A stretch of 64,000 bases of DNA from a candidate division WWE3 bacterium RAAC2_WWE3_1 (GCA_000503835.1 CP006914.1:379909-443908); one strand, 5' to 3'. Counted from the first letter of the stretch, positions 4,764 through 15,641 are shown. Notes: a model not told the origin generated them from the letters alone. Made by a program: numbers and translations.

Positions 4764-5945
4764 GTGACGATAACACAGACAGCAAGAACAGCTTTCCTGT
4801 CACTTCAAAAAAATAAACTCAGGAGCTTTCTGACCATGCTCGGTGTGATAATAGGCGTTTTTGCCGTAGCATCGCTGGTTTCGATAGTGAGAGGCTTCCA
4901 GAATTATGTAAAAAGCGAGTTTGATGCGTTAGGTTCCAATCTTATTTTCATAATGCCCGGAAAAATAGACTTTACCGGAGATCCTTCAAGGAATTTTACC
5001 GGGAACAAGCTCAAATACAACCATGTAGAAAGAATTCAGACGGATCTCGGAAACAAAATCAGCTCCATTTCGCCGTGGTACGAGCTCTCAAAAAATTTTA
5101 TTTATAAAACTAAATCATTTTACGGAGCGATTGGAGGAATAAACGATAGTGTTCTCAAGTTGTTTAACCTTAATGTGGCAAACGGGCGTTTTTTCACAAA
5201 AGCTGAGATGGACGCCAAAGCGAAAGTAGCGGTAATAGGATCAAAAGTTCTGGAGGAATTGTTCAATTCACGCAACCCCATCGGAGAAAAAATACAAATC
5301 GACGGAACATCGTATTTGATTTTAGGTGTGCTGGAAGAAAAGAGTCCTAATTACGATAATATTGTTTACATCCCATACACCACGGTTGAGTCCGAATTCA
5401 ACATTAAAAATATCGGCTCCATAGTTATAAAAGTCGGTAGCGGGGAGGATATAAACAGTGTAAAGAATGAGATCAGGCTCTCACTCTTGAAAGAACTAAA
5501 AGACGAAGAATTCTCGGTCTCAACACAGGAGGATCTTTTACAGAGAATAAACGATATTTTAAAGATAATAGAGAGCGGACTGACGGCAATTGCTGCTATC
5601 TCACTGCTTGTGGGCGGTATAGGGATTATGAACATCATGCTCGTCTCCGTTACCGAGAGAACCCGCGAAATAGGCCTTATCAAAGCATTGGGGGCGACCG
5701 GCAGGGACATAGCCCTCCAATTCCTATCCGAATCCGTATTTATAAGTTTCACCGGCGGATTAATAGGATTAGCGGCCGCGTGGATTGCCACACTTGTTGC
5801 AAAAACGTGGATACCTGCGGAGATACCTTTATGGGCAGTTGTGGTATCTTTGGGTTTTTCACTTCTTGTCGGAATCGGCTTCGGAACTTATCCTGCAATT
5901 AAGGCCGGAAAAAAGGACCCGATAGTTGCCCTTAGATATGAATAA
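4764..5945 (+). CDS. ABC transporter permease, MacB/FtsX family (MacB_PCD + FtsX domains)
   Basis: N-terminal TM, large periplasmic domain, three C-terminal TM helices with FtsX-type region (TERTREIGLIKALGATGRDI); no cognate ATPase gene adjacent. Confidence 0.8.
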   Translation: MTITQTARTAFLSLQKNKLRSFLTMLGVIIGVFAVASLVSIVRGFQNYVKSEFDALGSNLIFIMPGKIDFTGDPSRNFTGNKLKYNHVERIQTDLGNKISSISPWYELSKNFIYKTKSFYGAIGGINDSVLKLFNLNVANGRFFTKAEMDAKAKVAVIGSKVLEELFNSRNPIGEKIQIDGTSYLILGVLEEKSPNYDNIVYIPYTTVESEFNIKNIGSIVIKVGSGEDINSVKNEIRLSLLKELKDEEFSVSTQEDLLQRINDILKIIESGLTAIAAISLLVGGIGIMNIMLVSVTERTREIGLIKALGATGRDIALQFLSESVFISFTGGLIGLAAAWIATLVAKTWIPAEIPLWAVVVSLGFSLLVGIGFGTYPAIKAGKKDPIVALRYE

Positions 5946-7227
5946 AAATCTACAAAGCAAAATAATTGAAACTTTAGGCAACGGTCAGGTGGCTTTTTTC
6001 AAATCCGACACGATTTACGGATTACACGCAAAAGCGGACAACCAAAAAGCCGTAGAAAAGATCAATCAGCTAAAAGGGCGGGACATTAATAAACCCTTTA
6101 TTATACTAATCGGGAACATCGGGCAATTGGAAATATTCGGTGTTTCAATAAATAAAAATACCCGAAAATTAATTAAAAAACATTGGCCGGGGAAATTAAC
6201 ACTCGTGCTCAAAGCAAATTTAACCGAAACACTGAAATACTTAGGCCGGGGAGGCGAGACTCTCGCGTTCAGAATGCCTAAGGACAAAGATATTCAGAAC
6301 ATCATAAAGAGCACAGGACCGATAATAAGCACCTCCGCGAACCCTTCGGGAGAAGAACCCGCATCCACGGTAGAGGAAGCAAAAAAATATTTTGGGGACG
6401 GGGTAGATTTATACATTGATTCGGGAAATGTTGAAACCGGGCCTTCTACAGTAATAGATGCTACCGGAGAAGACATTAGGATTTTACGGGAAGGAGAAGT
6501 AAAGCTGTCGCCTATGCCCGCGAACAGCTATAATTCGGCTATGGGCAATAAGATTAATTACGCGGTTGCCACACTAATATTTTTAGCTATAGCTACCGGC
6601 GTTTGGCTTAACATTAAGGAACAAAAAAGCATCGACCATTCGAAATTGCCGGAAAAGGTCGAGCAAAGCAACGGGTTCCAAAGGTGGATCACAAATCTCA
6701 AGAACAAAGATATGGTAATAGAAGCTGACGAATTTACACTCAAAGAAGAGAATGAAATTTACAACACAAAATGGATGAAAGTTTACTCGATAGAAGAAGA
6801 GGGAATGAGAGAAAAATATAATGGGACAATTGAAAGTTTGCGCGGTGTAAAAAAAGTTGTTTTTTCCCCCAGCGAAAGAGAATTAATTGACTACCGCCCG
6901 GAATACAGAGACGGTTACGCACCGAACGAAGTTCATTTTTACGGATTGAAAGAGGATAAGATTATCGATGCGAGAATTTTGGACTGTTCCGCACATGCGA
7001 ATTGTTATTTCGACCGGGCATATTTTTTGGATAATGATGTTTTTGTTATTTCGGAATTTTCAAGAACGATTGATAAGAAGGATGAGGTCTCTGCTGTGTG
7101 CTCGGTGGAGGAAACGTGCGAGTATTCCGTAAAGGTTCACGTTATAGATTTAATAAACAATAAACGCCTGGTTTACGAATCCCGTCCTTTTCAGGCTGTT
7201 ATGACAGAATTGTTGCCGGAGTTGTGA
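5926..7227 (+). CDS. tsaC: L-threonylcarbamoyladenylate synthase (YrdC/TsaC domain) fused to a C-terminal TM helix + ~200-aa domain of unknown function
   Basis: N-terminal ~200 aa matches the YrdC fold (KSDTIYGL, KGR..NKPFIILI, PGKLTLVL, GPIISTSANPSG); TM helix INYAVATLIFLAIATGVWL follows, then an unknown Cys-containing domain; start overlaps upstream gene by 20 nt. Confidence 0.7.
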   Translation: MPLDMNKNLQSKIIETLGNGQVAFFKSDTIYGLHAKADNQKAVEKINQLKGRDINKPFIILIGNIGQLEIFGVSINKNTRKLIKKHWPGKLTLVLKANLTETLKYLGRGGETLAFRMPKDKDIQNIIKSTGPIISTSANPSGEEPASTVEEAKKYFGDGVDLYIDSGNVETGPSTVIDATGEDIRILREGEVKLSPMPANSYNSAMGNKINYAVATLIFLAIATGVWLNIKEQKSIDHSKLPEKVEQSNGFQRWITNLKNKDMVIEADEFTLKEENEIYNTKWMKVYSIEEEGMREKYNGTIESLRGVKKVVFSPSERELIDYRPEYRDGYAPNEVHFYGLKEDKIIDARILDCSAHANCYFDRAYFLDNDVFVISEFSRTIDKKDEVSAVCSVEETCEYSVKVHVIDLINNKRLVYESRPFQAVMTELLPEL

Positions 7228-7295
7228 GAGGGTAGGGGATAGGGTAAGATTCTCGCGGATATGTGCTTTTTCACGCCCTTGTCGCTTTCGTTCCT

Positions 7296-7372
7296 CGGGG
7301 TGTAGCTCAGTTGGCTAGAGTGCACGGTTTGGGACCGTGAGGCCGCAGGTTCGAGTCCTGTCACCCCGACCA
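7296..7372 (+). tRNA. tRNA-Pro (anticodon UGG), CCA encoded
   Basis: Hand-folded cloverleaf: acceptor CGGGGTG/CACCCCG, anticodon stem CACGG/CCGTG, loop TTTGGGA, T-loop TTCGAGT, 3' ACCA. Confidence 0.85.
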
Positions 7373-7502
7373 TTTTAAAAACCAATGACGCAAGTCATCG
7401 CTTAGAGACGTGGTTACACCAACTTCAACTAGCTCTTCCAATTCGAGTGGTACAAAAGAGGTATTAACAAATTCCTGATTATTAAATTCATATGGAGGTT
7501 AA

Positions 7503-7874
7503 ATGAAACCACAGAAAATATCCAACGGATTTTTAAGATTCCTGGTAGTGGTATTATCCCTAGTACTTTATTTCTTAAAGGTATCTCTTTCTGGTGCTTA
7601 CGCAGAAGAAATAGGGGCATTGCTCTTTGGGATATTGCTGTGTGGAGTAATTATATACTACCCAATAAGTTACAGATCAAAAGAAACTCCAAAAGAGACG
7701 CGGGTAAATAGACAGCTTAAAACCATGGTTTATGCTTCAGTGATATCCGTTGTCGACTTGTTTGTAGAAGGGAGCTACATAATACTCGGAATCATCGGGG
7801 TGATCTTACTCTACGTCAACATCCAGAAACAGAAACGGGAATTCGTAAATACAAATCCGATAAATAACAATTAG
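7503..7874 (+). CDS. Small 3-4 TM membrane protein (hypothetical; possible immunity/export partner of the adjacent RiPP-like pair)
   Basis: 123-aa ORF with GGAGG 5 nt upstream of ATG; hydrophobic helices FLRFLVVVLSLVLYFL, IGALLFGILLCGVIIYY, YIILGIIGVILLYV; convergent with peptide gene. Confidence 0.5.
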   Translation: MKPQKISNGFLRFLVVVLSLVLYFLKVSLSGAYAEEIGALLFGILLCGVIIYYPISYRSKETPKETRVNRQLKTMVYASVISVVDLFVEGSYIILGIIGVILLYVNIQKQKREFVNTNPINNN

Positions 7875-7951
7875 GTACATTAAAAAGAAAAGACCTGCCT
7901 ACAAGGATTGTGTCCCCATAAACAAGTCTTTCGTTGGTGTGCCCAGCTCGA

Positions 7952-8149
7952 CTAATTCTTACAGTCGGAACACTGGCACTGGCACTCGCAGTCACAGTCG
8001 TAGCAATCGCCGCCGCATTCGCAATCACAGTCTTTTTCGCACTGTTGGCTGCATTGCGTTGCGCAGTCATAATCGCATTCGCAATCCTTGCATTCGGCCT
8101 GGCTTCGGGAGCCCGCAACATGGATACCGAGAGCGCTCAGGGTAGTCAT
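7952..8149 (-). CDS. Cys-rich precursor-like peptide (65 aa; 19-aa leader + 46-aa core with 16 Cys and many Asp/Glu), putative RiPP precursor
   Basis: Sequence MTTLSALGIHVAGSRSQAE-CKDCECDYDCATQCSQQCEKDCDCECGGDCYDCDCECQCQCSDCKN; its start codon overlaps the stop of the upstream rSAM/SPASM gene (ATGA), so the two are translationally coupled. Confidence 0.6.
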   Translation of the reverse strand: MTTLSALGIHVAGSRSQAECKDCECDYDCATQCSQQCEKDCDCECGGDCYDCDCECQCQCSDCKN

Positions 8150-9489
8150 GTCTGCCTTACCTCCTTTCTTCGGATTTTTCTTCCCTCATACACGAGTATA
8201 GCGGGAAGTACGCCTTTCATCAGCTCGCACATAACTGATGGTTCTCCCAATGTGTTTGCGCTTAAAGCAAGCACGGCACATCCACCGCAGCACACATGTC
8301 GCCAAAGGCATTCGCCGCAAACCCCATCTCTACCTAAGGTTTCGACATGAGTTGCAAAAGGCAAGATGCCCCCTCTATCCAAAGCACGCCCCAGAGGCTT
8401 ATCAACGGTCATTTGGCAAAAGCAGACATTAGCTTCTGGGTCAACGGCGAAGTAGTTGCTACCCCCACCACAGATCCTTGTCCTGCTACCGTCAAACTGG
8501 ATACCGTTGAAGCTTAGTCTTGGAAGCTCGTTGTCAGGAAGTAGGCTGACTTGTTCCAAGAATGCAACCATCTTGCTAGTAACGTGGTCTACATTCATGG
8601 TCAAACCCACGCCGTGCTCGTAATCCCGGGACAGGCTTAGACTGAGTGTTAGACCTTTCCCTCTGACATACTGCATTAGCTCCCAAAGCCCGTCTACGTT
8701 CTTATCAGAAATCGTAGTTAGAATGGTTGGTTTAATCCCAGCCAATATCAAAGTTTCGATTCCTTGAAGAACGTGCTCCACACTTGGTCGGCCGTCTGCG
8801 TACTTTCGGGCATCGTTGTAGCTACCAAGCCCATCAAGCGATACCATCACGGAGAAGCCTTTCTCGTTTAGGAAGTGGGCTTTGGCCTCCGTAACCAATG
8901 TACCGTTGGTGATTATCGCCAACCGGACCTTGACACCCAAGGGCTCTAGTTTAGCCTTTGTTTGGTCTACCAAGTAAGCAATTATCTCCGTGTAAATAAG
9001 CGGTTCGCCACCAGCAAATTTCAACTCTACTTCTTTAACCTGTTGGGCCTCTACATCGTTGTGTAAAGCGGTAACGATTGCGTCGCACGCTTCCTTGGTC
9101 AGTCTGCGTTTGCCTTTATGCACATAGCAGTATTCGCACCGCAGATTACAGGCGTCCGTAACATGTATCCAGAGAGCCACGGACTTTGCACGTCTGGCCT
9201 TGGCTTTCTCCTGCTTAGGAACCTTCTTACCAAAAAGCCCCTCTTCCAGGAGAAACTGGATTATGGCGTGTAAAGACTCTTCCCAATCAGTATCATCTCT
9301 TGACTGGAGAATTTCCTGAAGGGTTAAACCGTTTGCCAGTTGTTCGTATACGTACAGAGCCGCGTCTGAAAGTACAAATGCCTTGCCGGAACCGTAAGGA
9401 CTGTAGATCACCGCCTCACCATTTTGTAGGTTTAGCTTAATGTGACCTGACATGTCCAATAACAGTCCCTGATACGTCAGGTCTGTCAT
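8146..9489 (-). CDS. Radical SAM/SPASM-domain peptide-modifying enzyme with N-terminal PqqD/RRE-like leader-binding domain
   Basis: CxxxCxxC at residues 114-121 (ACNLRCEYC); C-terminal auxiliary-cluster Cys pattern C-x16-CxC ... CGECLWRHVCCGGC (Cx2Cx5Cx3C) ... C typical of SPASM; ~100-aa N-terminal extension (SGKAFVLSDAALYVYEQLANGLTLQEILQ) resembles RRE; GGAGAG SD 7 nt upstream of ATG. Confidence 0.85.
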   Translation of the reverse strand: MTDLTYQGLLLDMSGHIKLNLQNGEAVIYSPYGSGKAFVLSDAALYVYEQLANGLTLQEILQSRDDTDWEESLHAIIQFLLEEGLFGKKVPKQEKAKARRAKSVALWIHVTDACNLRCEYCYVHKGKRRLTKEACDAIVTALHNDVEAQQVKEVELKFAGGEPLIYTEIIAYLVDQTKAKLEPLGVKVRLAIITNGTLVTEAKAHFLNEKGFSVMVSLDGLGSYNDARKYADGRPSVEHVLQGIETLILAGIKPTILTTISDKNVDGLWELMQYVRGKGLTLSLSLSRDYEHGVGLTMNVDHVTSKMVAFLEQVSLLPDNELPRLSFNGIQFDGSRTRICGGGSNYFAVDPEANVCFCQMTVDKPLGRALDRGGILPFATHVETLGRDGVCGECLWRHVCCGGCAVLALSANTLGEPSVMCELMKGVLPAILVYEGRKIRRKEVRQT

Positions 9490-9793
9490 GATGATCTCTC
9501 CTTTCAGTTGTATTTTGATTGTTGCCGTAGTTATAGCATAATTGTCGTATAGAGTAAAACCGAATTACCCACATGACTGCTGATTACTGTAGTATAATGA
9601 CCTCAACGATTCATCACTTCAAAGAAAGGAGTAGCACCGTGGGTAGACTTAGTGATTTAGGTATTTACGTATCCAAGTCTGAGGATCGGCATTAAGACTC
9701 AGATTGCCCGGCGGACTGCGAAATACCCGGTGACTGCGACGAAGGGCAGCACCCGCCCCAATCCTAACAGCCTAATAGAAAGAAGGAGCATTT
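9490..9793. promoter_or_regulatory. Divergent intergenic/promoter region of the rSAM operon and the 283-aa gene, containing a direct repeat GACTGCGA (x2, 18-bp spacing) and a small hairpin
   Basis: GACTGCGA at 9714..9721 and 9732..9739; hairpin TCTGAG(9677-9682)/CTCAGA(9698-9703); SD elements for both divergent genes at the edges. Confidence 0.3.
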
Positions 9794-10645
9794 GTGTTTG
9801 TTTTAATGCACATACGCCCCATTTCTCGATATATGTCAATAAGTCTTGGATTAATAAATAAAAATAAAAGAATAAGCGTCACCGAAATTATCGATAGCTA
9901 CGTTAATTCGCTGAACTCTGTTTTCGTTAATTCGGAGCTAGAATCTTTTGTCTACTCCAAAGAAAAAGGAGTTGTTTCATTGTTATTTGAGGGTAACGTT
10001 GAGAATTTCAATACTCAGGACGCAGGTCTACTAATCCAAACAGACAATATACTTGATAGAGAAATCACAACCATAAAAGTAGTTCATGAGAACTCATACA
10101 AATCCAGACAAAATTTATCAAATAGGCTCTCGTTTCTAAAGAGGCTAGAATGCGGTTTTGTACTCCTGGAACATACCGCACTGATAGACGATGTTTCTAA
10201 GAGACCTCCGAGAAAAACTACAAACGGCAACCTCTATTTGCCTGTTGGAGCCATTACAACGTATTTCAATCCCGATTCAACTGATTCGCGCTATGCAAAC
10301 GATAGACGTGGGGTTGATTTCCGAGAGTCAGTTGATTCTCCAGATATTATTACCACCACAGATTTGTATTATTCAAGTTTCATTGATAACAAAAATTTGG
10401 ATGGACTAACTGCTCCAGACCAATGCGGTTTGCAACACTTTACTACAGTAGTACATAATGTCGACGGTAAGCTTAATATATCATTTTTGCAGAATCAGAA
10501 TGCTAAGTTAGCCAGATACTTTTTCGAACCCGAAATTGTATTTTGCAGTAACGATTTTATCCTAAGAACATTTAGGGGTATTAGGTACCCACAGCAAGAG
10601 ATTTCCCTAAAAAATAATTTGCGAAAAGCATCTTTCGAGGTTTAA
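9794..10645 (+). CDS. Hypothetical protein (283 aa), divergent from rSAM gene
   Basis: GTG start with AAGGAG SD 6-7 nt upstream; no recognisable motif. Confidence 0.5.
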   Translation: MFVLMHIRPISRYMSISLGLINKNKRISVTEIIDSYVNSLNSVFVNSELESFVYSKEKGVVSLLFEGNVENFNTQDAGLLIQTDNILDREITTIKVVHENSYKSRQNLSNRLSFLKRLECGFVLLEHTALIDDVSKRPPRKTTNGNLYLPVGAITTYFNPDSTDSRYANDRRGVDFRESVDSPDIITTTDLYYSSFIDNKNLDGLTAPDQCGLQHFTTVVHNVDGKLNISFLQNQNAKLARYFFEPEIVFCSNDFILRTFRGIRYPQQEISLKNNLRKASFEV

Positions 10646-10750
10646 GTACCGGTTATACCTTCGCAAATTCCAGAATGTACATATAATCTGTATTTGTAAT
10701 AAAATAGTTGCAAACATCTTCTCGTGCAGTCGACCAGAAAAGTAAATATT

Positions 10751-11257
10751 ATGCCACGCAGAATATTCATCGGAATCAAACCCGACGACCACATAATCAG
10801 AGACATCAAATCCATGCACGAACAGCTAGCATTTCTGCCGGTGCACTGGGTTCCGCTCGAAAACCTGCACACAACCCTCATTCCTCCGTGGAAGCCGACA
10901 AACTACGAAAAAGATCTCGAAACGTTCAACTCGCTGAAAATAAAACAGCCATCGGCGCCCCTTACATTTACATCCGTTACATTTTTCAAACCAAAAAATA
11001 TGTTATGGGCAGTTGGACATAATTCTGAAACCCTATGCCCGATAATAGAAAACCTGCGTAACGCTTTTAATTTTGCTAAAGACGAAAGGGAATATTTGAT
11101 GCATATAACCCTGGCAAAACATGTTGCAGCCGAACTCAGCATTCCGGAAGTAAAAATACAGTGGCAGTTTGTCCCTACAGAACTAACTTTATTTGAGACT
11201 GTACAAACCAAAGGCGAAACACAATACAAAACCCTCTCTACTATAAGCATGACGTGA
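10751..11257 (+). CDS. ligT: RNA 2',3'-cyclic phosphodiesterase / 2'-5' RNA ligase family (2H phosphoesterase, LigT/ThpR)
   Basis: Two H-x-T/S-x motifs (HTTL and HITL) spaced ~80 aa, hallmark of the 2H superfamily; start taken at internal Met ([11 protein letters not shown]). Confidence 0.7.
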
Positions 11258-11270
11258 TATCATTGAACTT

Positions 11271-12212
11271 ATGAAAACAGTATTAGTAACAGGCGGCGCA
11301 GGATTTTTAGGAAGTCACCTTTGCGATTACTTAATTAATAAAGGTGAAAAAGTTATTTGCGTTGATAATCTTTTTACCGGAGATAAGAAAAATATTGAGC
11401 ATCTTTTGGAAAACCCCAATTTCAGATTTATAAACCACGACATCATTGATCCGTTGTATGTAGAGGACACAATCATCGATCAAATTTATAATCTCGCCTG
11501 TCCGGCATCACCGATTCACTATCAATTTAATCCAGTCAGAACTATTAAAGCTAACACCATCGGCGTTATAAATATGCTCGGTCTCGCCAAAACCCATAAA
11601 GCGAGGATATTGCAGGCTTCAACATCGGAAATTTATGGAGACCCCCTCGAACATCCTCAAAAAGAATCCTACCGCGGCAACGTAAACACAATCGGACCCA
11701 GAGCCTGTTACGACGAAGGCAAAAGGGTAGCAGAAACGCTTTTTTTCGACTACCACAGACAACACAATCTTGAAATTAAAGTCATTAGAATATTCAACAC
11801 ATACGGACCGCGTATGGCTCAAAACGACGGCAGGGTAGTATCGAATTTTATTTTGCAGGCACTGAGAAACGAACCTATCCAAATCTACGGTGACGGAAAA
11901 CAAACAAGATCATTTTGTTTCGTATCCGATCTAATAGAAGGAATGTATAGAATGATGAACACCGATGACTTTATAGGTCCCGTAAATATCGGAAATCCCG
12001 GAGAATTTACAATGCTCGAACTCGCAGAAAAAGTTATCGAGCTAACAGGTTCGAAATCGGAAATTATTCACAAACCGCTACCAACGGATGACCCTATGAA
12101 AAGAAAACCGGATATAACGCTGGCCAAAGAAAAATTAAAATGGGAACCTAAAGTACAACTGGCCGAGGGGTTAAAACAAACGATAGATTATTTTAGATTA
12201 GCCATCGAGTAA
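11271..12212 (+). CDS. UDP-glucuronate decarboxylase (UDP-xylose synthase), NAD-dependent SDR epimerase/dehydratase family
   Basis: [11 protein letters not shown] Rossmann motif, VDNLFTG, catalytic YDEGKR (YxxxK), strong resemblance to UXS enzymes. Confidence 0.85.
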
Positions 12213-12284
12213 ATCTCTAATCTCCTTAGAATCAATTTTTGTACATAGCAATTTTTTTATGTTATTCTTTTTGAGAATAGAAAT

Positions 12285-13085
12285 ATGAGTAGCTATCCCA
12301 AATTTTTTACAAAAGAAGGAAGAACTTTACGCCCTTTAAATATTCCCACGGTTGATGCTTCTTTTTCCAAAGAAAGAGGTCTTGATTCCATCAGTTCCTT
12401 GGTGTCGGAGAGCACCATTTTTCCGAATCATCCGCTAACACCGCGCAAAAACATACTTGAAACTATAAACACGAAGATAGAGCGTATGACAGCGGCCTTA
12501 CCCATTCAAAAATATGCGACCATGGGATTCGCAGTAGCATTAATAACGATTACCGGTATTACAGTTCACGCAGCAGTCGTCCCCCGAAAAATTTCTTTCA
12601 CGGAAGACGACGGTTACAACATTTATTCCTCCAAACCTCTTACCTACGATTACGCAGTTTCAAAGGTTAGCACGAAAGATTCAAGGGCAGAAAAGATCGA
12701 CGGCGTCTTTAACATTTATAAATGCCCTTTAGAAGGACTAGGCGGCAAGTTTGTAGAGGAAGCCGATAAATACGGTATCCCCTGGTGGTTAACAGCTTCC
12801 GTAGCGTTCAAAGAATCCAGCTGTGGCAAGAACACACCTACGGTAGACGGCCGGGAAAGCTACAACGCATGGGGTTGGGGAGTTTACGGTGATAACGTTC
12901 GTTCTTTCGACAACTTCGCCCGTGGTATTGAGACTGTGTCCAAGTACTTTTCCGACAAATTCTATTCGCGGGGTATTGAGGATCCCTGCGAGATTATGAA
13001 AGTGTATACTCCGCCCTCGGACGGTTCCTGGTGCCGCGATGTCGTTCACTTTTCGGAGGTTTTTGACCAGTACCGAACCCTTTAA
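12285..13085 (+). CDS. Membrane-anchored protein with C-terminal lysozyme-like (SLT/glucosaminidase-like) domain; paralog of next gene
   Basis: TM helix MGFAVALITITGITVHAAVV; C-terminal block YGIPWWLTASVAFKESSCGK...YNAWGWGVYGDN...YTPPSDGSW shared with 13152..13724. Confidence 0.5.
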   Translation: MSSYPKFFTKEGRTLRPLNIPTVDASFSKERGLDSISSLVSESTIFPNHPLTPRKNILETINTKIERMTAALPIQKYATMGFAVALITITGITVHAAVVPRKISFTEDDGYNIYSSKPLTYDYAVSKVSTKDSRAEKIDGVFNIYKCPLEGLGGKFVEEADKYGIPWWLTASVAFKESSCGKNTPTVDGRESYNAWGWGVYGDNVRSFDNFARGIETVSKYFSDKFYSRGIEDPCEIMKVYTPPSDGSWCRDVVHFSEVFDQYRTL

Positions 13086-13151
13086 TCTTTTCTAAAGAAT
13101 AACCCTATAGTATTTGACGGGTGAGCTAAATATGGTAGAATTAACGTTTGT

Positions 13152-13724
13152 ATGTGGAGAAAACCTCGGTTTAAACCGACGGTCATAGTCCTTTCCGCGC
13201 TAGTTTACGCTATTGCGGTACTAGGGGGAATGATCTCCACCAAAGCTGAGGCAAATGGAAAGATTTTAGCATCTTCCGGACAGGCCGAGACAGCTTTGGT
13301 TAAAGTAACTGTCGAGTATAAAAAGGTTAATAGGGAAGAGGTGCTAACAGCCTTCTTCGAAGACTTAAAGTCCCCTCTTAAACCTAATGCAAAGAAATTT
13401 ATCGAAGTTGCTGATAAATACGGGTTAGATTATCGTTTGCTGCCGGCCATTTCATGTATGGAGTCGACCTGCGGTAAGCGTATAATTCCCGAATCATATA
13501 ACCCTTTCGGGTGGGGCATTTACGGAAATACCCATATTGCTTTTGCTTCGTTTGACGAAGCAATCGAAACGGTGGGTAAAGGATTGGCTGAAAACTATGT
13601 TTCTAGGGGATTTGATACTCCCCGTGAAATAGCGCCGATCTACACCCCTCCCAACCACGTTAACTGGCTGAATGGAGTTAATTACTTCTATAGCAGGATG
13701 GAAACGCTGGAAGGACAAATTTAA
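13152..13724 (+). CDS. Membrane-anchored protein with lysozyme-like domain (paralog of 12285..13085)
   Basis: N-terminal TM TVIVLSALVYAIAVLGGMI; conserved block YGLDYRLLPAISCMESTCGK...YNPFGWGIYGNT...YTPPNHVNW. Confidence 0.5.
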   Translation: MWRKPRFKPTVIVLSALVYAIAVLGGMISTKAEANGKILASSGQAETALVKVTVEYKKVNREEVLTAFFEDLKSPLKPNAKKFIEVADKYGLDYRLLPAISCMESTCGKRIIPESYNPFGWGIYGNTHIAFASFDEAIETVGKGLAENYVSRGFDTPREIAPIYTPPNHVNWLNGVNYFYSRMETLEGQI

Positions 13725-13844
13725 TAGAAAAAACCGAATAGGGAAGGGCGGTTTAAGTACCGCCCTTTCTTTATGCTTTAATTAGGTGGTTTGGTTGGTA
13801 TAATATGGGAGCTAACTGGACTTAACTACGGGCTGGAAATATTT

Positions 13845-13878
13845 GGGCGAGTGGCGGAATGGCATACGCGCACGGCTT
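13845..13878 (+). repeat. 34-nt exact duplicate of the 5' half of tRNA-Leu (acceptor 5' strand through the 5' side of the anticodon loop), 98 nt upstream of the intact gene
   Basis: GGGCGAGTGGCGGAATGGCATACGCGCACGGCTT occurs at 13845..13878 and again at 13943..13976; first copy does not continue into a tRNA. Confidence 0.7.
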
Positions 13879-13942
13879 TAGTTTACTAACGTAAGCCGCC
13901 CAAGGATATAGTACTGAGAAACTTTAAAACTGAATAGTTCGG

Positions 13943-14026
13943 GGGCGAGTGGCGGAATGGCATACGCGCACGGCTTAGAACCGTGTTCCGAAAGGATTGG
14001 AGGTTCGAGTCCTCTCTCGCCCACCA
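13943..14026 (+). tRNA. tRNA-Leu (anticodon UAG), long variable arm, CCA encoded
   Basis: Acceptor GGGCGAG/CTCGCCC, anticodon stem CACGG/CCGTG, loop CTTAGAA, variable stem-loop TCCGAAAGGA, T-loop TTCGAGT, 3' ACCA. Confidence 0.85.
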
Positions 14027-14099
14027 TATTTTATGTTGGTTTAACAACCCCATTTTAACAAAACCCAAAAGGGACTCGAACTTTTGATACAATTAAGTT

Positions 14100-14720
14100 A
14101 TGGCAACACCTATCACTCACATAGTACTAACAGAAAAAGTTTTTAATAATCTATTTAATAATTTTAATAAAAAAGATTTTATAATCGGGACTAGTTTTCC
14201 AGATATAAGATACCTAGGAACAATAGGTAGAGAGAAAACTCATATTAATGTAAATAACCTTGTAGATCTAAGAGACAATAATCCATTCTTTGCAGGAATG
14301 AAGTTTCACACGTTAGTAGATAAAATCAGGGAAGATTTCTTACTTTCGAGAAATATCTATTCAAAATGTCCAGAATCCAAATACATAACTAAATCTATAA
14401 AGTTTGTTGAAGATAAAATTCTCTATGATAAAGTTACTAATTGGATTAGCTACCAAAATTATTTCGATAATTTACTACAGGAAGAGCTCGAATCAGGTGC
14501 AGGGAAAGAAGCTGTTTCTCAATGGCATGGCGTACTAAAGAAATATTTTGCAAAGAAACCAAACGAAGAAAGCATTCGTACTTTTGTTGCAGAAATCAAT
14601 TTACCAGAAAACGTAGCGACAGAGATACAAAATAACGTGAATGTGATTGAAAATATTCCAGAAATTAATATGTACGTAGAAGATTTATACAACACTTTTG
14701 AAGAGTTACTTAAAAAGTAA
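14100..14720 (+). CDS. Hypothetical protein (206 aa), strongly AT-rich coding sequence (islet gene)
   Basis: ORF immediately downstream of tRNA-Leu; composition visibly more AT-rich (~30% GC) than surrounding genes; no motif recognised. Confidence 0.5.
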   Translation: MATPITHIVLTEKVFNNLFNNFNKKDFIIGTSFPDIRYLGTIGREKTHINVNNLVDLRDNNPFFAGMKFHTLVDKIREDFLLSRNIYSKCPESKYITKSIKFVEDKILYDKVTNWISYQNYFDNLLQEELESGAGKEAVSQWHGVLKKYFAKKPNEESIRTFVAEINLPENVATEIQNNVNVIENIPEINMYVEDLYNTFEELLKK

Positions 14721-14821
14721 AATTAGTTCGCGCATCCTCACAAATGGTCCACCATATTTTCTGCATTGATACATCATCATATACAAAATAAAGATCGAAC
14801 TTTTTAAGCTATAATTAACAC

Positions 14822-15538
14822 ATGGTTACTAAAGGGATTACTGTACTGAAAAATATTATCGAAACTAATCCGCTATGGTATCAAGATGACCAAATAAAAT
14901 ACTTCATCAACTTATTCAATAAAAATACACTTACAAAGCGGGAAAAGTCAGATAAGAATAATTTTAAAACTTTATTGAAAGAGACTATCTTTTATATAGA
15001 TAGCAGTGGTTATAATTGGGATCAATGGCGACTGCCTATCGAGTATGCAGTAATACACCATACTTCAAGTTCACCAACAATAGGCTTGAAAGAACTAAAT
15101 GTGTTAGGACTGAGACTTTACATTCAACAGTATTTAACTGACAAAGATGTTAAAGATCAACCGCTTTATTCGGGACATTATTGGGTGGGACAACCCGAAA
15201 TTATAGAAAACATGACATTTGTTAGCTACCACTTTTTAGTAAGACCTAACGGTAAAATCATCCAGCTAACCGATACTTCTGCGTATCTATGGCATGCGGG
15301 AAATCTTGAAATAAATAGAAAATCTATAGGAATAGCGTTAGCTGGGAAATTTATAGATAAAGAACCAACTGCGGAAGCATTAATCTCAGCAGCAAGCATC
15401 ATAAAGAAATATAATATAGATGCGAATAAAGTCTTTGGTCACAAGGAGGTGATAAAGAAAGATCTACTTGGAGAGACAGAATGCCCGGGAAACTTATTTT
15501 CTGAAGGCTGGAAAAGTAAATTAATTTTCAATCTGTGA
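14822..15538 (+). CDS. N-acetylmuramoyl-L-alanine amidase (Amidase_2/PGRP-type, endolysin-like)
   Basis: Zn-ligand pattern AVIHHT ... WHAGN ... GHKEV ... ECPG characteristic of Amidase_2; AT-rich. Confidence 0.8.
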   Translation: MVTKGITVLKNIIETNPLWYQDDQIKYFINLFNKNTLTKREKSDKNNFKTLLKETIFYIDSSGYNWDQWRLPIEYAVIHHTSSSPTIGLKELNVLGLRLYIQQYLTDKDVKDQPLYSGHYWVGQPEIIENMTFVSYHFLVRPNGKIIQLTDTSAYLWHAGNLEINRKSIGIALAGKFIDKEPTAEALISAASIIKKYNIDANKVFGHKEVIKKDLLGETECPGNLFSEGWKSKLIFNL

Positions 15539-15641
15539 TAGCACAATAGTTCTCACTTGGTCGCTAGGAACCCACCACACATACTATCTATTCAGGTGAG
15601 TAATCCTGCCATCAAATCCGATTGACACTCTGTACATAGTA

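What the first reader, a model, noticed from the sequence alone, without database searches (positions are those of the whole stretch)
7373..10700. The RiPP-like pair sits in a small tRNA-Pro-adjacent block with atypical composition and two orphan genes
Four genes lie between tRNA-Pro (7296..7372) and ligT (10751): a 3-4 TM small membrane protein (convergent with the peptide gene), the peptide, the maturase, and a divergently transcribed 283-aa protein with no recognisable motifs. The maturase/peptide DNA looks more GC-rich (roughly high-40s %) than neighbouring housekeeping genes. Adjacency to a tRNA and composition shift suggest horizontal acquisition. The small membrane protein is a plausible immunity/export component.
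Basis: partly seen in the sequence, partly recalled or inferred. Interest (0 to 1): 0.55.

Follow-up and report, generated by a model that had tools for sequence, protein, structure and literature searches.

The report
Mobile peptide-modifying cassette in a tRNA-Pro variable slot
In this tiny-genome groundwater bacterium (candidate division WWE3), the stretch between a proline tRNA gene and the ligT gene is a slot whose contents differ in every related species; here it holds a small, laterally moving gene set for a cysteine-rich modified peptide, which is an ordinary kind of genomic island carrying a little-known cargo.

Summary
tRNA-Pro(UGG) is at 7296-7372 and ligT starts at ATG 10751. Between them lie a 123-aa 3-4-TM protein, a 65-aa Cys/Asp/Glu-rich peptide, a 447-aa radical-SAM/SPASM maturase and a "283-aa" ORF. 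The peptide/maturase DNA is 49-55% GC against a 43% background and is the second most atypical tetranucleotide segment of the window.

Comparative data support lateral acquisition:
- In the five closest species representatives the flanks are syntenic, but the slot holds 1.7-8.0 kb of unrelated cargo.
- Homology breaks exactly at the tRNA 3' end and at the ligT start.
- A 91%-identical maturase/peptide pair sits beside tRNA-Glu in an unrelated context.
- Five relatives carry att-like duplicates of the tRNA-Pro 3' end, and one slot holds a serine recombinase.
- The window itself has no integrase and no att repeat.

- The 283-aa ORF is really about 270 aa, starting at 9833. It follows homologous maturase/peptide pairs in three other CPR contigs and has a confidently predicted Ntn-hydrolase (class-II amidotransferase-like) fold.
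- A second precursor gene, interrupted by a stop codon, lies at 9639-9767.
- The membrane protein has no homologues, so an immunity or export role is unsupported.

Overall this is an ordinary island with a moderately novel cargo.

The parts
7296..7372 (+). tRNA-Pro(UGG). It is the left boundary of the variable slot. Synteny with relatives ends within 0-9 nt of its 3' end.
   Evidence: ARAGORN; Rfam tRNA, 67 bits; blastn breakpoints at 7372-7381.
7503..7874 (+). A 123-aa small membrane protein with 3-4 TM segments, specific to this species. GGAGG lies 5 nt upstream of the ATG. Only codons 86-123 (7758-7874) are shared with the 91% cassette locus L052.
   Evidence: No homologues other than itself. 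Partial tblastn/blastn match to L051/L052. The weak AgrB hit is sub-threshold and the protein has no His.
7888..7932 (-). A terminator-like hairpin (20 pairs followed by a T-run) just downstream of the peptide gene. It is conserved in L052 and L054.
7952..8149 (-). Precursor peptide A, 65 aa. The leader is MTTLSALGIHVAGS. The core is built of (D/E/Q)-C repeats and has 16 Cys. The ORF overlaps the maturase stop codon by 4 nt.
   Evidence: Orthologous peptides follow every homologous maturase and share the leader motif L-x-x-LGI[HYT][VY].
8146..9489 (-). Radical-SAM/SPASM peptide maturase, 447 aa. It has the CNLRCEYC motif and a C-terminal CGECLWRHVCCGGC motif.
   Evidence: Pfam Radical_SAM 1e-17. 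The best NCBIfam hit is PapB, at 124 bits against a cutoff of 340, so no curated family is reached. The best PDB hit is CteB 5wgg, E 1e-19. Homologues run from 91% to 37% identity within CPR.
7758..9541 (.). The DNA segment shared at 86% identity with the tRNA-Glu-adjacent cassette of L051/L052. This is the minimal co-transferred module.
   Evidence: blastn. Tetranucleotide z = +3.2.
9639..9767 (+). A second precursor-like gene, peptide B, divergent from the maturase, with RBS AAAGGAG at 9624-9630. It reads MGRLSDLGIYVSKSEDRH-TAA-DSDCPADCEIPGDCDEGQHPPQS. An in-frame stop at 9693 separates the leader from the core, so it is probably a pseudogene.
   Evidence: Sequence and motif scan. An intact counterpart occupies the same position in L004 at 7748-7909. 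The sequence is identical, including the stop, in 7 public contigs.
9833..10645 (+). A cassette accessory protein of 270 aa from MSISL. The longest ORF starts at GTG 9794 and gives 283 aa. It has an Ntn-hydrolase / class-II amidotransferase-like fold, and Ser/Thr follows Met1 throughout the family.
10751..11257 (+). ligT (RNA 2',3'-cyclic phosphodiesterase). It is the right boundary of the slot, where synteny with relatives resumes.

Best explanation
The interval between the 3' end of tRNA-Pro(UGG) and ligT is a hypervariable flexible-genome slot in the WWE3 lineage.

In this species the slot holds a reduced RiPP cassette that moves laterally among CPR genomes and tends to land beside tRNA genes. 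The cassette has four parts:
- precursor peptide A, with a conserved leader L-x-x-LGI(H/Y)V and a core of (D/E/Q)-C repeats;
- an rSAM/SPASM maturase;
- a decayed second precursor gene;
- an Ntn-hydrolase-fold accessory protein.

The slot also holds one species-specific small membrane ORF.

Inferred mechanism (not shown):
- The maturase binds the leader through its N-terminal domain and installs radical-mediated cross-links in the core. Thioethers between Cys and Asp/Glu, of the ranthipeptide type made by CteB and PapB, are the most likely product.
- The 270-aa Ntn-like protein hydrolyses an amide bond. Leader removal is the most likely reaction, because it occupies the one-accessory-per-pair position that a ~210-aa HExxH protein holds in most sister cassettes.

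How the cassette arrived is unresolved. The window has no integrase and no att repeat. Candidate routes are an old, decayed integration or recombination in the slot.
For: Variable slot:
- 44 TsaC-anchored loci from GTDB species representatives were collected and mapped with tblastn and ARAGORN.
- The five closest species keep the order macB-tsaC-tRNA-Pro ... ligT-epimerase-orf266-orf190. The gap between tRNA-Pro and ligT is 1.66, 7.2, 8.0, 6.4 and 3.85 kb, against 3.35 kb here.
- None of the five has a homologue of any of the four genes.
- Their cargo is unrelated: a HigB/M78 toxin-antitoxin pair and 'Beta protein'; a large serine recombinase with an AAA_13 protein and an ABC transporter; glycosyltransferases.
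- Across 19 loci the distance from tRNA-Pro to orf266 ranges from 346 to 9559 nt.
- Homology breaks at 7372-7381 and resumes at 10751.
- att-like second copies of the last 21 nt of tRNA-Pro lie 68-723 nt downstream in L008, L017, L025, L029 and L031.

Mobile cassette:
- Ten independent maturase loci all sit in different neighbourhoods.
- The 91% relative shares 86% DNA identity over window 7758-9541 only, and that homology ends 40 nt from tRNA-Glu(CUC).
- A tRNA lies within 600 nt of the cassette in 4 of 10 loci: Pro, Glu, Leu-UAA and Gly-CCC. A rough chance estimate is P about 0.001.
- The cassette is more GC-rich than its flanks in all 7 loci measured.

Accessory protein:
- Linkage to rSAM+peptide pairs is shown.
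- L060 reads rSAM2-pep2-HExxH followed by rSAM-pep-orf283 homologue, which fits one accessory per pair.
- The fold assignment rests.

Maturase chemistry lead:
- The best PDB hit is CteB and the best NCBIfam hit is PapB.
- PapB links Cys to Asp/Glu (PMC9413430, abstract).
Against: - The window has no integrase, no recombinase remnant and no direct repeat of the tRNA 3' end.
- All 23 contigs read that carry the identical TsaC also carry the block, so no empty-site strain of this species was seen.
- The compositional signal is moderate (GC3 z = +1.2; codon-usage distance 0.305, against 0.21-0.27 for the six other ORFs of 393-464 aa). Because the cassette is GC-richer than its host everywhere, the shift may be intrinsic to these genes rather than a mark of recent transfer.
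- orf270 and the membrane ORF have the opposite (low) GC and are not covered by the DNA homology to L052. The slot content may therefore have been assembled in more than one event.
- The chemistry of the maturase and the activity of the Ntn-like protein are inferred, not shown.
Confidence: 0.75

Rival explanations
1. Classic integrase-delivered genomic island. In this view the whole four-gene block, from the membrane protein to the 283-aa ORF, arrived as one integrative element. A site-specific recombinase inserted it into the 3' end of tRNA-Pro, and the recombinase gene and the att repeat have since been lost.
For: - The insertion begins exactly at the tRNA 3' end.
- att-like duplicates of the tRNA-Pro 3' end occur in five relatives.
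- A large serine recombinase lies next to tRNA-Pro in the same slot of L009.
Against: - The window has no recombinase and no att repeat.
- DNA homology with the nearest cassette covers only 7758-9541.
- The parts differ in GC: 49-55% for the peptide and maturase against 37% for the two outer ORFs.
- None of the ten cassette loci examined carries an integrase next to the cassette.
Confidence: 0.13
2. Vertical inheritance with differential loss. In this view the cassette is ancestral to WWE3/CPR and has been lost or relocated by rearrangement in most lineages. The GC excess would simply reflect the amino-acid and codon needs of a Cys/Asp-rich peptide and an Fe-S enzyme.
For: - Maturase identities form a graded series from 91% to 37%, confined to CPR-like contigs.
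- Cassette GC tracks host GC, from 41% to 50%.
- The block is fixed in all contigs read for this species.
- Codon usage is only mildly deviant.
Against: - Five syntenic sister species have precise replacement by unrelated cargo at the same two breakpoints.
- A 91%-identical cassette sits at a different tRNA with no shared flanking genes.
- All ten loci are in different contexts.
Confidence: 0.1

Closest known systems
Ranthipeptide / SCIFF systems (CteB-CteA, PapB-PapA freyrasin)
   Same: - An rSAM enzyme with a SPASM-type C-terminal Cys motif is encoded next to a short Cys-rich precursor rich in Asp/Glu.
- The best PDB hit is CteB, E 1e-19, and the best NCBIfam hit is PapB.
- PapB makes Cys-Asp/Glu thioethers (PMC9413430).
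   Different: - Scores are far below the curated cutoffs: PapB 124 against 340 bits, and the SCIFF maturase 91 against 425.
- The precursor matches no Pfam or NCBIfam family.
- The core is made of (D/E/Q)-C dyads, with 16 Cys in 65 aa, rather than CX3D or six-Cys-in-45 spacing.
- The leader LGI(H/Y)V is distinct.
- Homologues down to 37% identity come only from CPR-like contigs.
tRNA-linked genomic islands / integrative elements
   Same: - The insert begins at the 3' end of a tRNA gene.
- It is absent from syntenic relatives.
- Its composition is atypical.
- The same slot in relatives carries toxin-antitoxin genes, defence-like genes and a recombinase.
- att-like tRNA-end duplicates occur in relatives.
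   Different: - This copy has no integrase and no flanking direct repeats.
- It is only 3.4 kb long.
Ntn-hydrolase class-II glutamine amidotransferase domains (PurF, GlmS, GltS, AsnB; stand-alone EgtC)
   Same: - The first beta-strand starts at residue 2.
- A potential nucleophile directly follows Met1.
   Different: - Sequence identity is 7-11%, and there is no Pfam hit for any of 17 family members.
- The residue after Met1 is Ser/Thr, not the Cys that defines class-II amidotransferases.
- No paper in the held library combines 'Ntn hydrolase', 'RiPP' and 'leader peptide'.

Membership tests
tRNA-associated integrative genomic island | Insertion directly at the 3' side of a tRNA gene | tested here: met
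   Synteny with five relatives ends at 7372-7381, which is the tRNA-Pro 3' end.
tRNA-associated integrative genomic island | Absent from the same site in close relatives that have conserved flanks | tested here: met
   L007-L011 keep both flanks but carry unrelated cargo of 1.7-8.0 kb. In L031 the distance from tRNA-Pro to orf266 is only 346 nt.
tRNA-associated integrative genomic island | Integrase or recombinase gene inside the island | tested here: not met
   There are no Pfam, NCBIfam or PHROG recombinase hits for any ORF in 7373-10750. A serine recombinase is present only in the L009 slot.
tRNA-associated integrative genomic island | Flanking direct repeat (att) that copies the tRNA 3' end | tested here: not met
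   The window has no second copy with 3 or fewer mismatches in 21 nt, and no direct repeat of 12 nt or more involving the tRNA. Such copies exist in five relatives.
tRNA-associated integrative genomic island | Composition different from the host genome | tested here: inconclusive
   The 7758-9541 module has tetranucleotide z = +3.2 and the highest GC in the window. At gene level GC3 z is only +1.2. The cassette is GC-richer than its host in all 7 loci, so the shift may be intrinsic.
rSAM/SPASM RiPP cluster (ranthipeptide/SCIFF type) | Radical-SAM CX3CX2C cluster motif and Radical_SAM domain | tested here: met
   The CNLRCEYC motif is present, and Pfam PF04055 scores 1e-17.
rSAM/SPASM RiPP cluster (ranthipeptide/SCIFF type) | SPASM auxiliary-cluster Cys motif (CX2CX5CX3C) | tested here: met
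   CGECLWRHVCCGGC lies near the C terminus (sequence). The Pfam SPASM HMM itself did not hit.
rSAM/SPASM RiPP cluster (ranthipeptide/SCIFF type) | Adjacent short Cys-rich precursor that co-varies with the enzyme | tested here: met
   In nine of the ten independent maturase loci a peptide with the shared leader motif and a (D/E/Q)-C core follows the maturase. The motif scan found none in L067, and that locus was not examined further.
rSAM/SPASM RiPP cluster (ranthipeptide/SCIFF type) | Score above the curated cutoff of a named maturase family (PapB, SCIFF/ScfB, CcpM, CefB and others) | tested here: not met
   The best hit is 124 bits against a cutoff of 340 (PapB). All 82 NCBIfam hits are below their cutoffs.
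rSAM/SPASM RiPP cluster (ranthipeptide/SCIFF type) | Thioether (Cys S to non-alpha carbon) cross-links in the product | not testable with these tools
   This needs expression and mass spectrometry or NMR.
Ntn hydrolase / class-II glutamine amidotransferase | Four-layer alpha-beta-beta-alpha Ntn fold | tested here: met
   [not shown]
Ntn hydrolase / class-II glutamine amidotransferase | Nucleophile (Cys, Ser or Thr) as the first residue after Met or propeptide removal, at the start of a beta-strand | tested here: met
   Ser or Thr follows Met1 in all full-length family members. The strand starts at residue 2 of the model. Catalysis itself was not tested.
Ntn hydrolase / class-II glutamine amidotransferase | N-terminal Cys, specific to class-II amidotransferases, and a match to the GATase sequence profiles | tested here: not met
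   The residue is Ser/Thr, not Cys. None of 17 members gives a GATase Pfam hit at E <= 1.

The most novel reading that the evidence does not exclude
The cassette may represent an undescribed RiPP family restricted to CPR bacteria. Its features would be:
- precursors with an LGI(H/Y)V leader and a core of (D/E/Q)-C dyads;
- a dedicated rSAM/SPASM maturase;
- interchangeable accessory hydrolases, one per maturase/peptide pair.

One of those accessories would be a previously unrecognised Ntn-hydrolase-fold family with a Ser/Thr N-terminal nucleophile, acting as a new type of RiPP leader peptidase or amidohydrolase.

The cassette would spread between tRNA-flanked slots of reduced genomes without carrying its own integrase.
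Probability: 0.4. Interest if true: 0.6.

Novelty: new variant of a known kind. Interest (0 to 1): 0.45.

Why it matters
CPR bacteria have genomes of about 1 Mb and are thought to live as episymbionts, so any secondary-metabolite cassette they keep and exchange probably matters for host or competitor interactions.

This locus contributes three things:
- a precisely bounded flexible slot, from the tRNA-Pro 3' end to the ligT start, that can be used to study gene flux in WWE3;
- a compact, experimentally tractable RiPP set of peptide, maturase and one accessory, about 2.7 kb in all;
- a fold-level function for an 'orphan' family, which could add an Ntn-type hydrolase to the RiPP toolbox.

The island phenomenon itself is ordinary.

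Tried and rejected
- **att repeats.** A direct/inverted repeat search of 7200-10800 and a fuzzy search for the last 21 nt of tRNA-Pro found no att repeat in the window. The 14-nt inverted match 7361-7374 / 7790-7803 is treated as chance.
- **AgrB-like peptidase.** The membrane protein gave a weak Pfam hit to AgrB (E 0.009, 15.8 bits against a cutoff of 23). The hit covers only the non-catalytic half of the profile, and the protein has no His. Rejected.
- **Phage or defence origin.** PHROGs and PADLOC gave only generic radical-SAM/viperin similarity. A scan of viral contigs with the maturase found nothing.
- **Non-coding RNA.** Rfam found only the tRNA.
- **HExxH peptidase.** tblastn for the ~210-aa partner protein found nothing in the whole 64-kb window.
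- **Metagenome scan for orf283 relatives.** The 4-sequence alignment returned only two copies of this species and one copy of the Collierbacteria locus.
- **L065 as a variant lacking the maturase.** It looked like one, but its junction lies inside orf283 at an A/T-rich run (window 9848), and the first 990 nt are unrelated AT-rich DNA. It is judged an assembly chimera.
- **afdb50 fold library.** It was unavailable.
- **Literature.** Searches found no description of this family.
- **Host divergence.** The divergence between the window genome and the L051 genome could not be measured, because the loci share no genes outside the cassette.
Full report
**What is there**

ARAGORN and Rfam place tRNA-Pro(UGG) at 7296-7372. 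Downstream lie the following features.
- A 123-aa ORF at 7503-7874 on the + strand. GGAGG lies 5 nt before the ATG, and the protein has 3-4 hydrophobic segments.
- A terminator-like hairpin at 7888-7932.
- A 65-aa peptide gene at 7952-8149 on the - strand.
- A 447-aa radical-SAM gene at 8146-9489 on the - strand, whose stop codon overlaps the peptide start.
- A 283-aa longest ORF at 9794-10645 on the + strand.
- ligT, identified as LigT_PEase / TIGR02258. Its conserved start is ATG 10751.

The source is a candidate division WWE3 (CPR) bacterium. Identical DNA occurs in GCA_000995235.1, GCA_003449455.1, GCA_000999505.1 and JGI 3300025011.

**Composition**

- The window averages 42.9% GC, and 1-kb windows have sd 2.9%. 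The peptide is 54.5% GC and the maturase 48.7%. The 1-kb window starting at 8001 is the GC maximum of the 64 kb.
- Among 66 long ORFs the maturase is only z = +1.6 for GC and +1.2 for GC3. Its codon-usage distance (0.305) is the highest among the seven ORFs of 393-464 aa, the others being 0.21-0.27.
- The tetranucleotide distance of 7758-9541 is z = +3.2. Only 2.2% of random equal-length segments reach it, and it is second only to 13.8-15.5 kb.
- The two outer ORFs are AT-rich instead, at 37.6% and 36.6% GC.
- The homologous cassette is GC-richer than its flanks in all seven loci measured, by 2 to 11 points. The shift is therefore real, but on its own it is weak evidence of recent transfer.

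**Synteny**

I used TsaC as an anchor and retrieved 44 loci from GTDB species representatives. I then mapped window proteins and tRNAs onto them.
- The five closest species have TsaC identities of 62-79%. They keep the order macB-tsaC-tRNA-Pro ... ligT-epimerase-orf266-orf190.
- Their interval from tRNA-Pro to ligT is 1.66, 7.2, 8.0, 6.4 and 3.85 kb.
- None of these intervals contains a homologue of the four genes.
- The contents are mutually unrelated. They include a HigB/Peptidase_M78 toxin-antitoxin pair with 'Beta protein'; a large serine recombinase with an AAA_13 ATPase and an ABC transporter; and glycosyltransferases.
- Nucleotide homology to the window stops at 7372-7381 and resumes at 10751.
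- Across 19 WWE3-like loci the distance from tRNA-Pro to orf266 ranges from 346 to 9559 nt.
- Five relatives (L008, L017, L025, L029, L031) carry a second copy of the last 21 nt of their tRNA-Pro, 68-723 nt downstream. This is the signature of past site-specific integration.
- The window has no such copy and no recombinase.
- All 23 contigs read that carry the identical TsaC also carry the block.

**The cassette moves**

- Maturase homologues form a series from 91% down to 37% identity, after which identity drops to 30% or less.
- I examined ten independent loci: the window, L051-53, L004, L054, L055/56, L067, L005, L060/66, L068 and L069/70. All lie in different neighbourhoods.
- The 91% relative shares 86% DNA identity with the window only over 7758-9541. 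This span covers the last 38 codons of the membrane ORF, the hairpin, the peptide, the maturase and 52 nt upstream of it. Its homology ends 40 nt from the 3' end of tRNA-Glu(CUC).
- A tRNA lies within 600 nt of the cassette in 4 of 10 loci: Pro, Glu, Leu-UAA and Gly-CCC. In L004 the cassette lies in a block that starts after tRNA-His.
- My rough chance estimate for 4 of 10 is about 0.001. It assumes 45 tRNAs per Mb and independent loci.

**Peptides**

- In nine of the ten loci the maturase is followed by a peptide with the leader M-x-x-L-x-x-LGI(H/Y/T)(V/Y) and a core of (D/E/Q)-C dyads. The window peptide has 16 Cys and 14 Asp+Glu. The motif scan found no such peptide in L067, and I did not examine that locus further.
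- In the maturase/orf283 intergenic region I found a second precursor-like gene at 9639-9767 on the + strand, with a good RBS and the same leader motif. An in-frame TAA at 9693 separates its leader from its core.
- An intact counterpart sits in the same divergent position in L004.
- The stop codon is present in all seven public copies. I read this gene as a pseudogene.

**The '283-aa orphan'**

- It has no Pfam, NCBIfam, PHROG or convincing PADLOC hit.
- Its family is tiny: 4 clusters among 5.8 billion proteins and 21 representatives among 1.84 billion.
- The family alignment places the true start at MSISL, which is ATG 9833 and gives 270 aa.
- Homologues directly follow a homologous maturase+peptide pair in a Collierbacteria contig (L060/L066, maturase 43% identical), in L068 (43%, between uvrB and lexA) and on the P0123 contig.
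- Most other cassettes have a ~210-aa HExxH protein instead (L004 twice, L005, L051-53, L054, L060, L069). That protein has a weak Peptidase_MA_2 match. Two cassettes have a third, 204-aa type.
- L060 reads rSAM2-pep2-HExxH followed by rSAM-pep-orf283 homologue, which fits one accessory per pair.
- The HExxH protein is absent from the whole window.
- An AlphaFold2 model built from 17 sequences has pLDDT 93.7 and pTM 0.92, and a beta-strand starts at residue 2.
- The residue after Met1 is Ser or Thr in every full-length member. This fits an Ntn nucleophile but not a class-II amidotransferase, which uses Cys.
- My inference is that the protein is an amide-bond hydrolase serving the cassette. It is most likely the leader peptidase. 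A side-chain amidohydrolase acting on the Gln-rich core is an alternative.

**The membrane ORF**

It has no homologue anywhere other than itself and is absent from the other cassette loci. Only its C-terminal 38 codons recur in L052, inside a 58-aa ORF that overlaps tRNA-Glu. Either the ancestral cassette carried such a gene and L052 truncated it, or the window ORF is a chimera. An immunity or export role has no support. The sub-threshold AgrB hit is rejected.

**Maturase**

- It has CX3CX2C and CX2CX5CX3C motifs.
- Its best NCBIfam hits are PapB, the nif11-type maturase, CefB and the SCIFF maturase, all far below their cutoffs.
- Its best solved relative is the SCIFF/ranthipeptide maturase CteB, E 1e-19, in an alignment that begins at residue 33 and so includes the N-terminal region.
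- PapB links Cys to Asp/Glu (PMC9413430). Thioether formation on the (D/E)-C core is therefore the leading hypothesis, but it is untested.

**Verdict**

The interpretation of lateral acquisition at a tRNA-adjacent site is supported by synteny, although this copy carries no mobility machinery. The 'two orphan genes' reading is half wrong, and the membrane-protein role is unsupported. The island itself is an ordinary phenomenon. The cargo is a rSAM-RiPP cassette, so far seen only on CPR-like contigs, with an Ntn-fold accessory, and it is moderately novel. I found no description of it in the searchable literature.

Noticed in passing
window 13800-15600 (after tRNA-Leu(tag) at 13943-14026): This is the strongest compositional outlier of the window. 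GC is 30-34% (gene z = -3.9 and -2.6) and tetranucleotide z is +4.5. It covers a 206-aa unknown protein and a 238-aa Amidase_2 protein, followed by a PhdYeFM/ParE toxin-antitoxin pair in the public annotation (L001). It looks like a second tRNA-adjacent island.
   Followed up: partly
window 9639-9767 (+): A second precursor-peptide gene carries an in-frame TAA at 9693 between its leader and its Cys/Asp core. An intact homologue lies in L004 at 7748-7909. The stop codon is identical in seven public assemblies.
   Followed up: yes
L005 700-2100; L009 2372-3440; L025 476-2211: The tRNA-Gly/Arg/Leu(taa) cluster upstream of tsaC is another variable site. It repeatedly holds different, distantly related rSAM/SPASM genes (24-29% identity to the window maturase), and in L005 it holds the cassette itself.
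   Followed up: partly
L004 4613-6085; L060 2022-3522: A second, different rSAM/SPASM gene (431-433 aa) with its own Cys/Asp-rich peptide accompanies the cassette in a WWE3 genome and in a Collierbacteria genome. In L060 ATP-grasp (RimK-like) genes and a 7TM-transglutaminase gene also lie alongside.
   Followed up: no
window 5926-7227 (tsaC): TsaC (Sua5/YrdC domain, residues ~16-190) is fused to a C-terminal region of about 230 aa. In most of the more distant WWE3-like loci only that C-terminal part (query residues ~203-433) is found upstream of tRNA-Pro. The fusion may therefore be specific to a subclade.
   Followed up: no
window 12285-13085 and 13152-13724: orf266 and orf190 are paralogues (34% identity) with a weak Glucosaminidase match. 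The pair is the most widely conserved downstream neighbour of tRNA-Pro across the WWE3-like loci.
   Followed up: no
L065 1-990 (Ga0209619_10016368): This metagenome contig joins window 9848-13815 to 990 nt of unrelated, very AT-rich DNA. The junction is an A/T-rich run inside the accessory gene, so the contig is probably an assembly chimera rather than a strain variant.
   Followed up: partly
L007 12597-12944, L008 18102-18470, L010 15123-15470 (all - strand): A conserved 115-122-aa protein without a Pfam match lies immediately upstream of ligT in three sister species (67-76% identity to each other). It is missing from the window, where the Ntn-like gene occupies that position.
   Followed up: no
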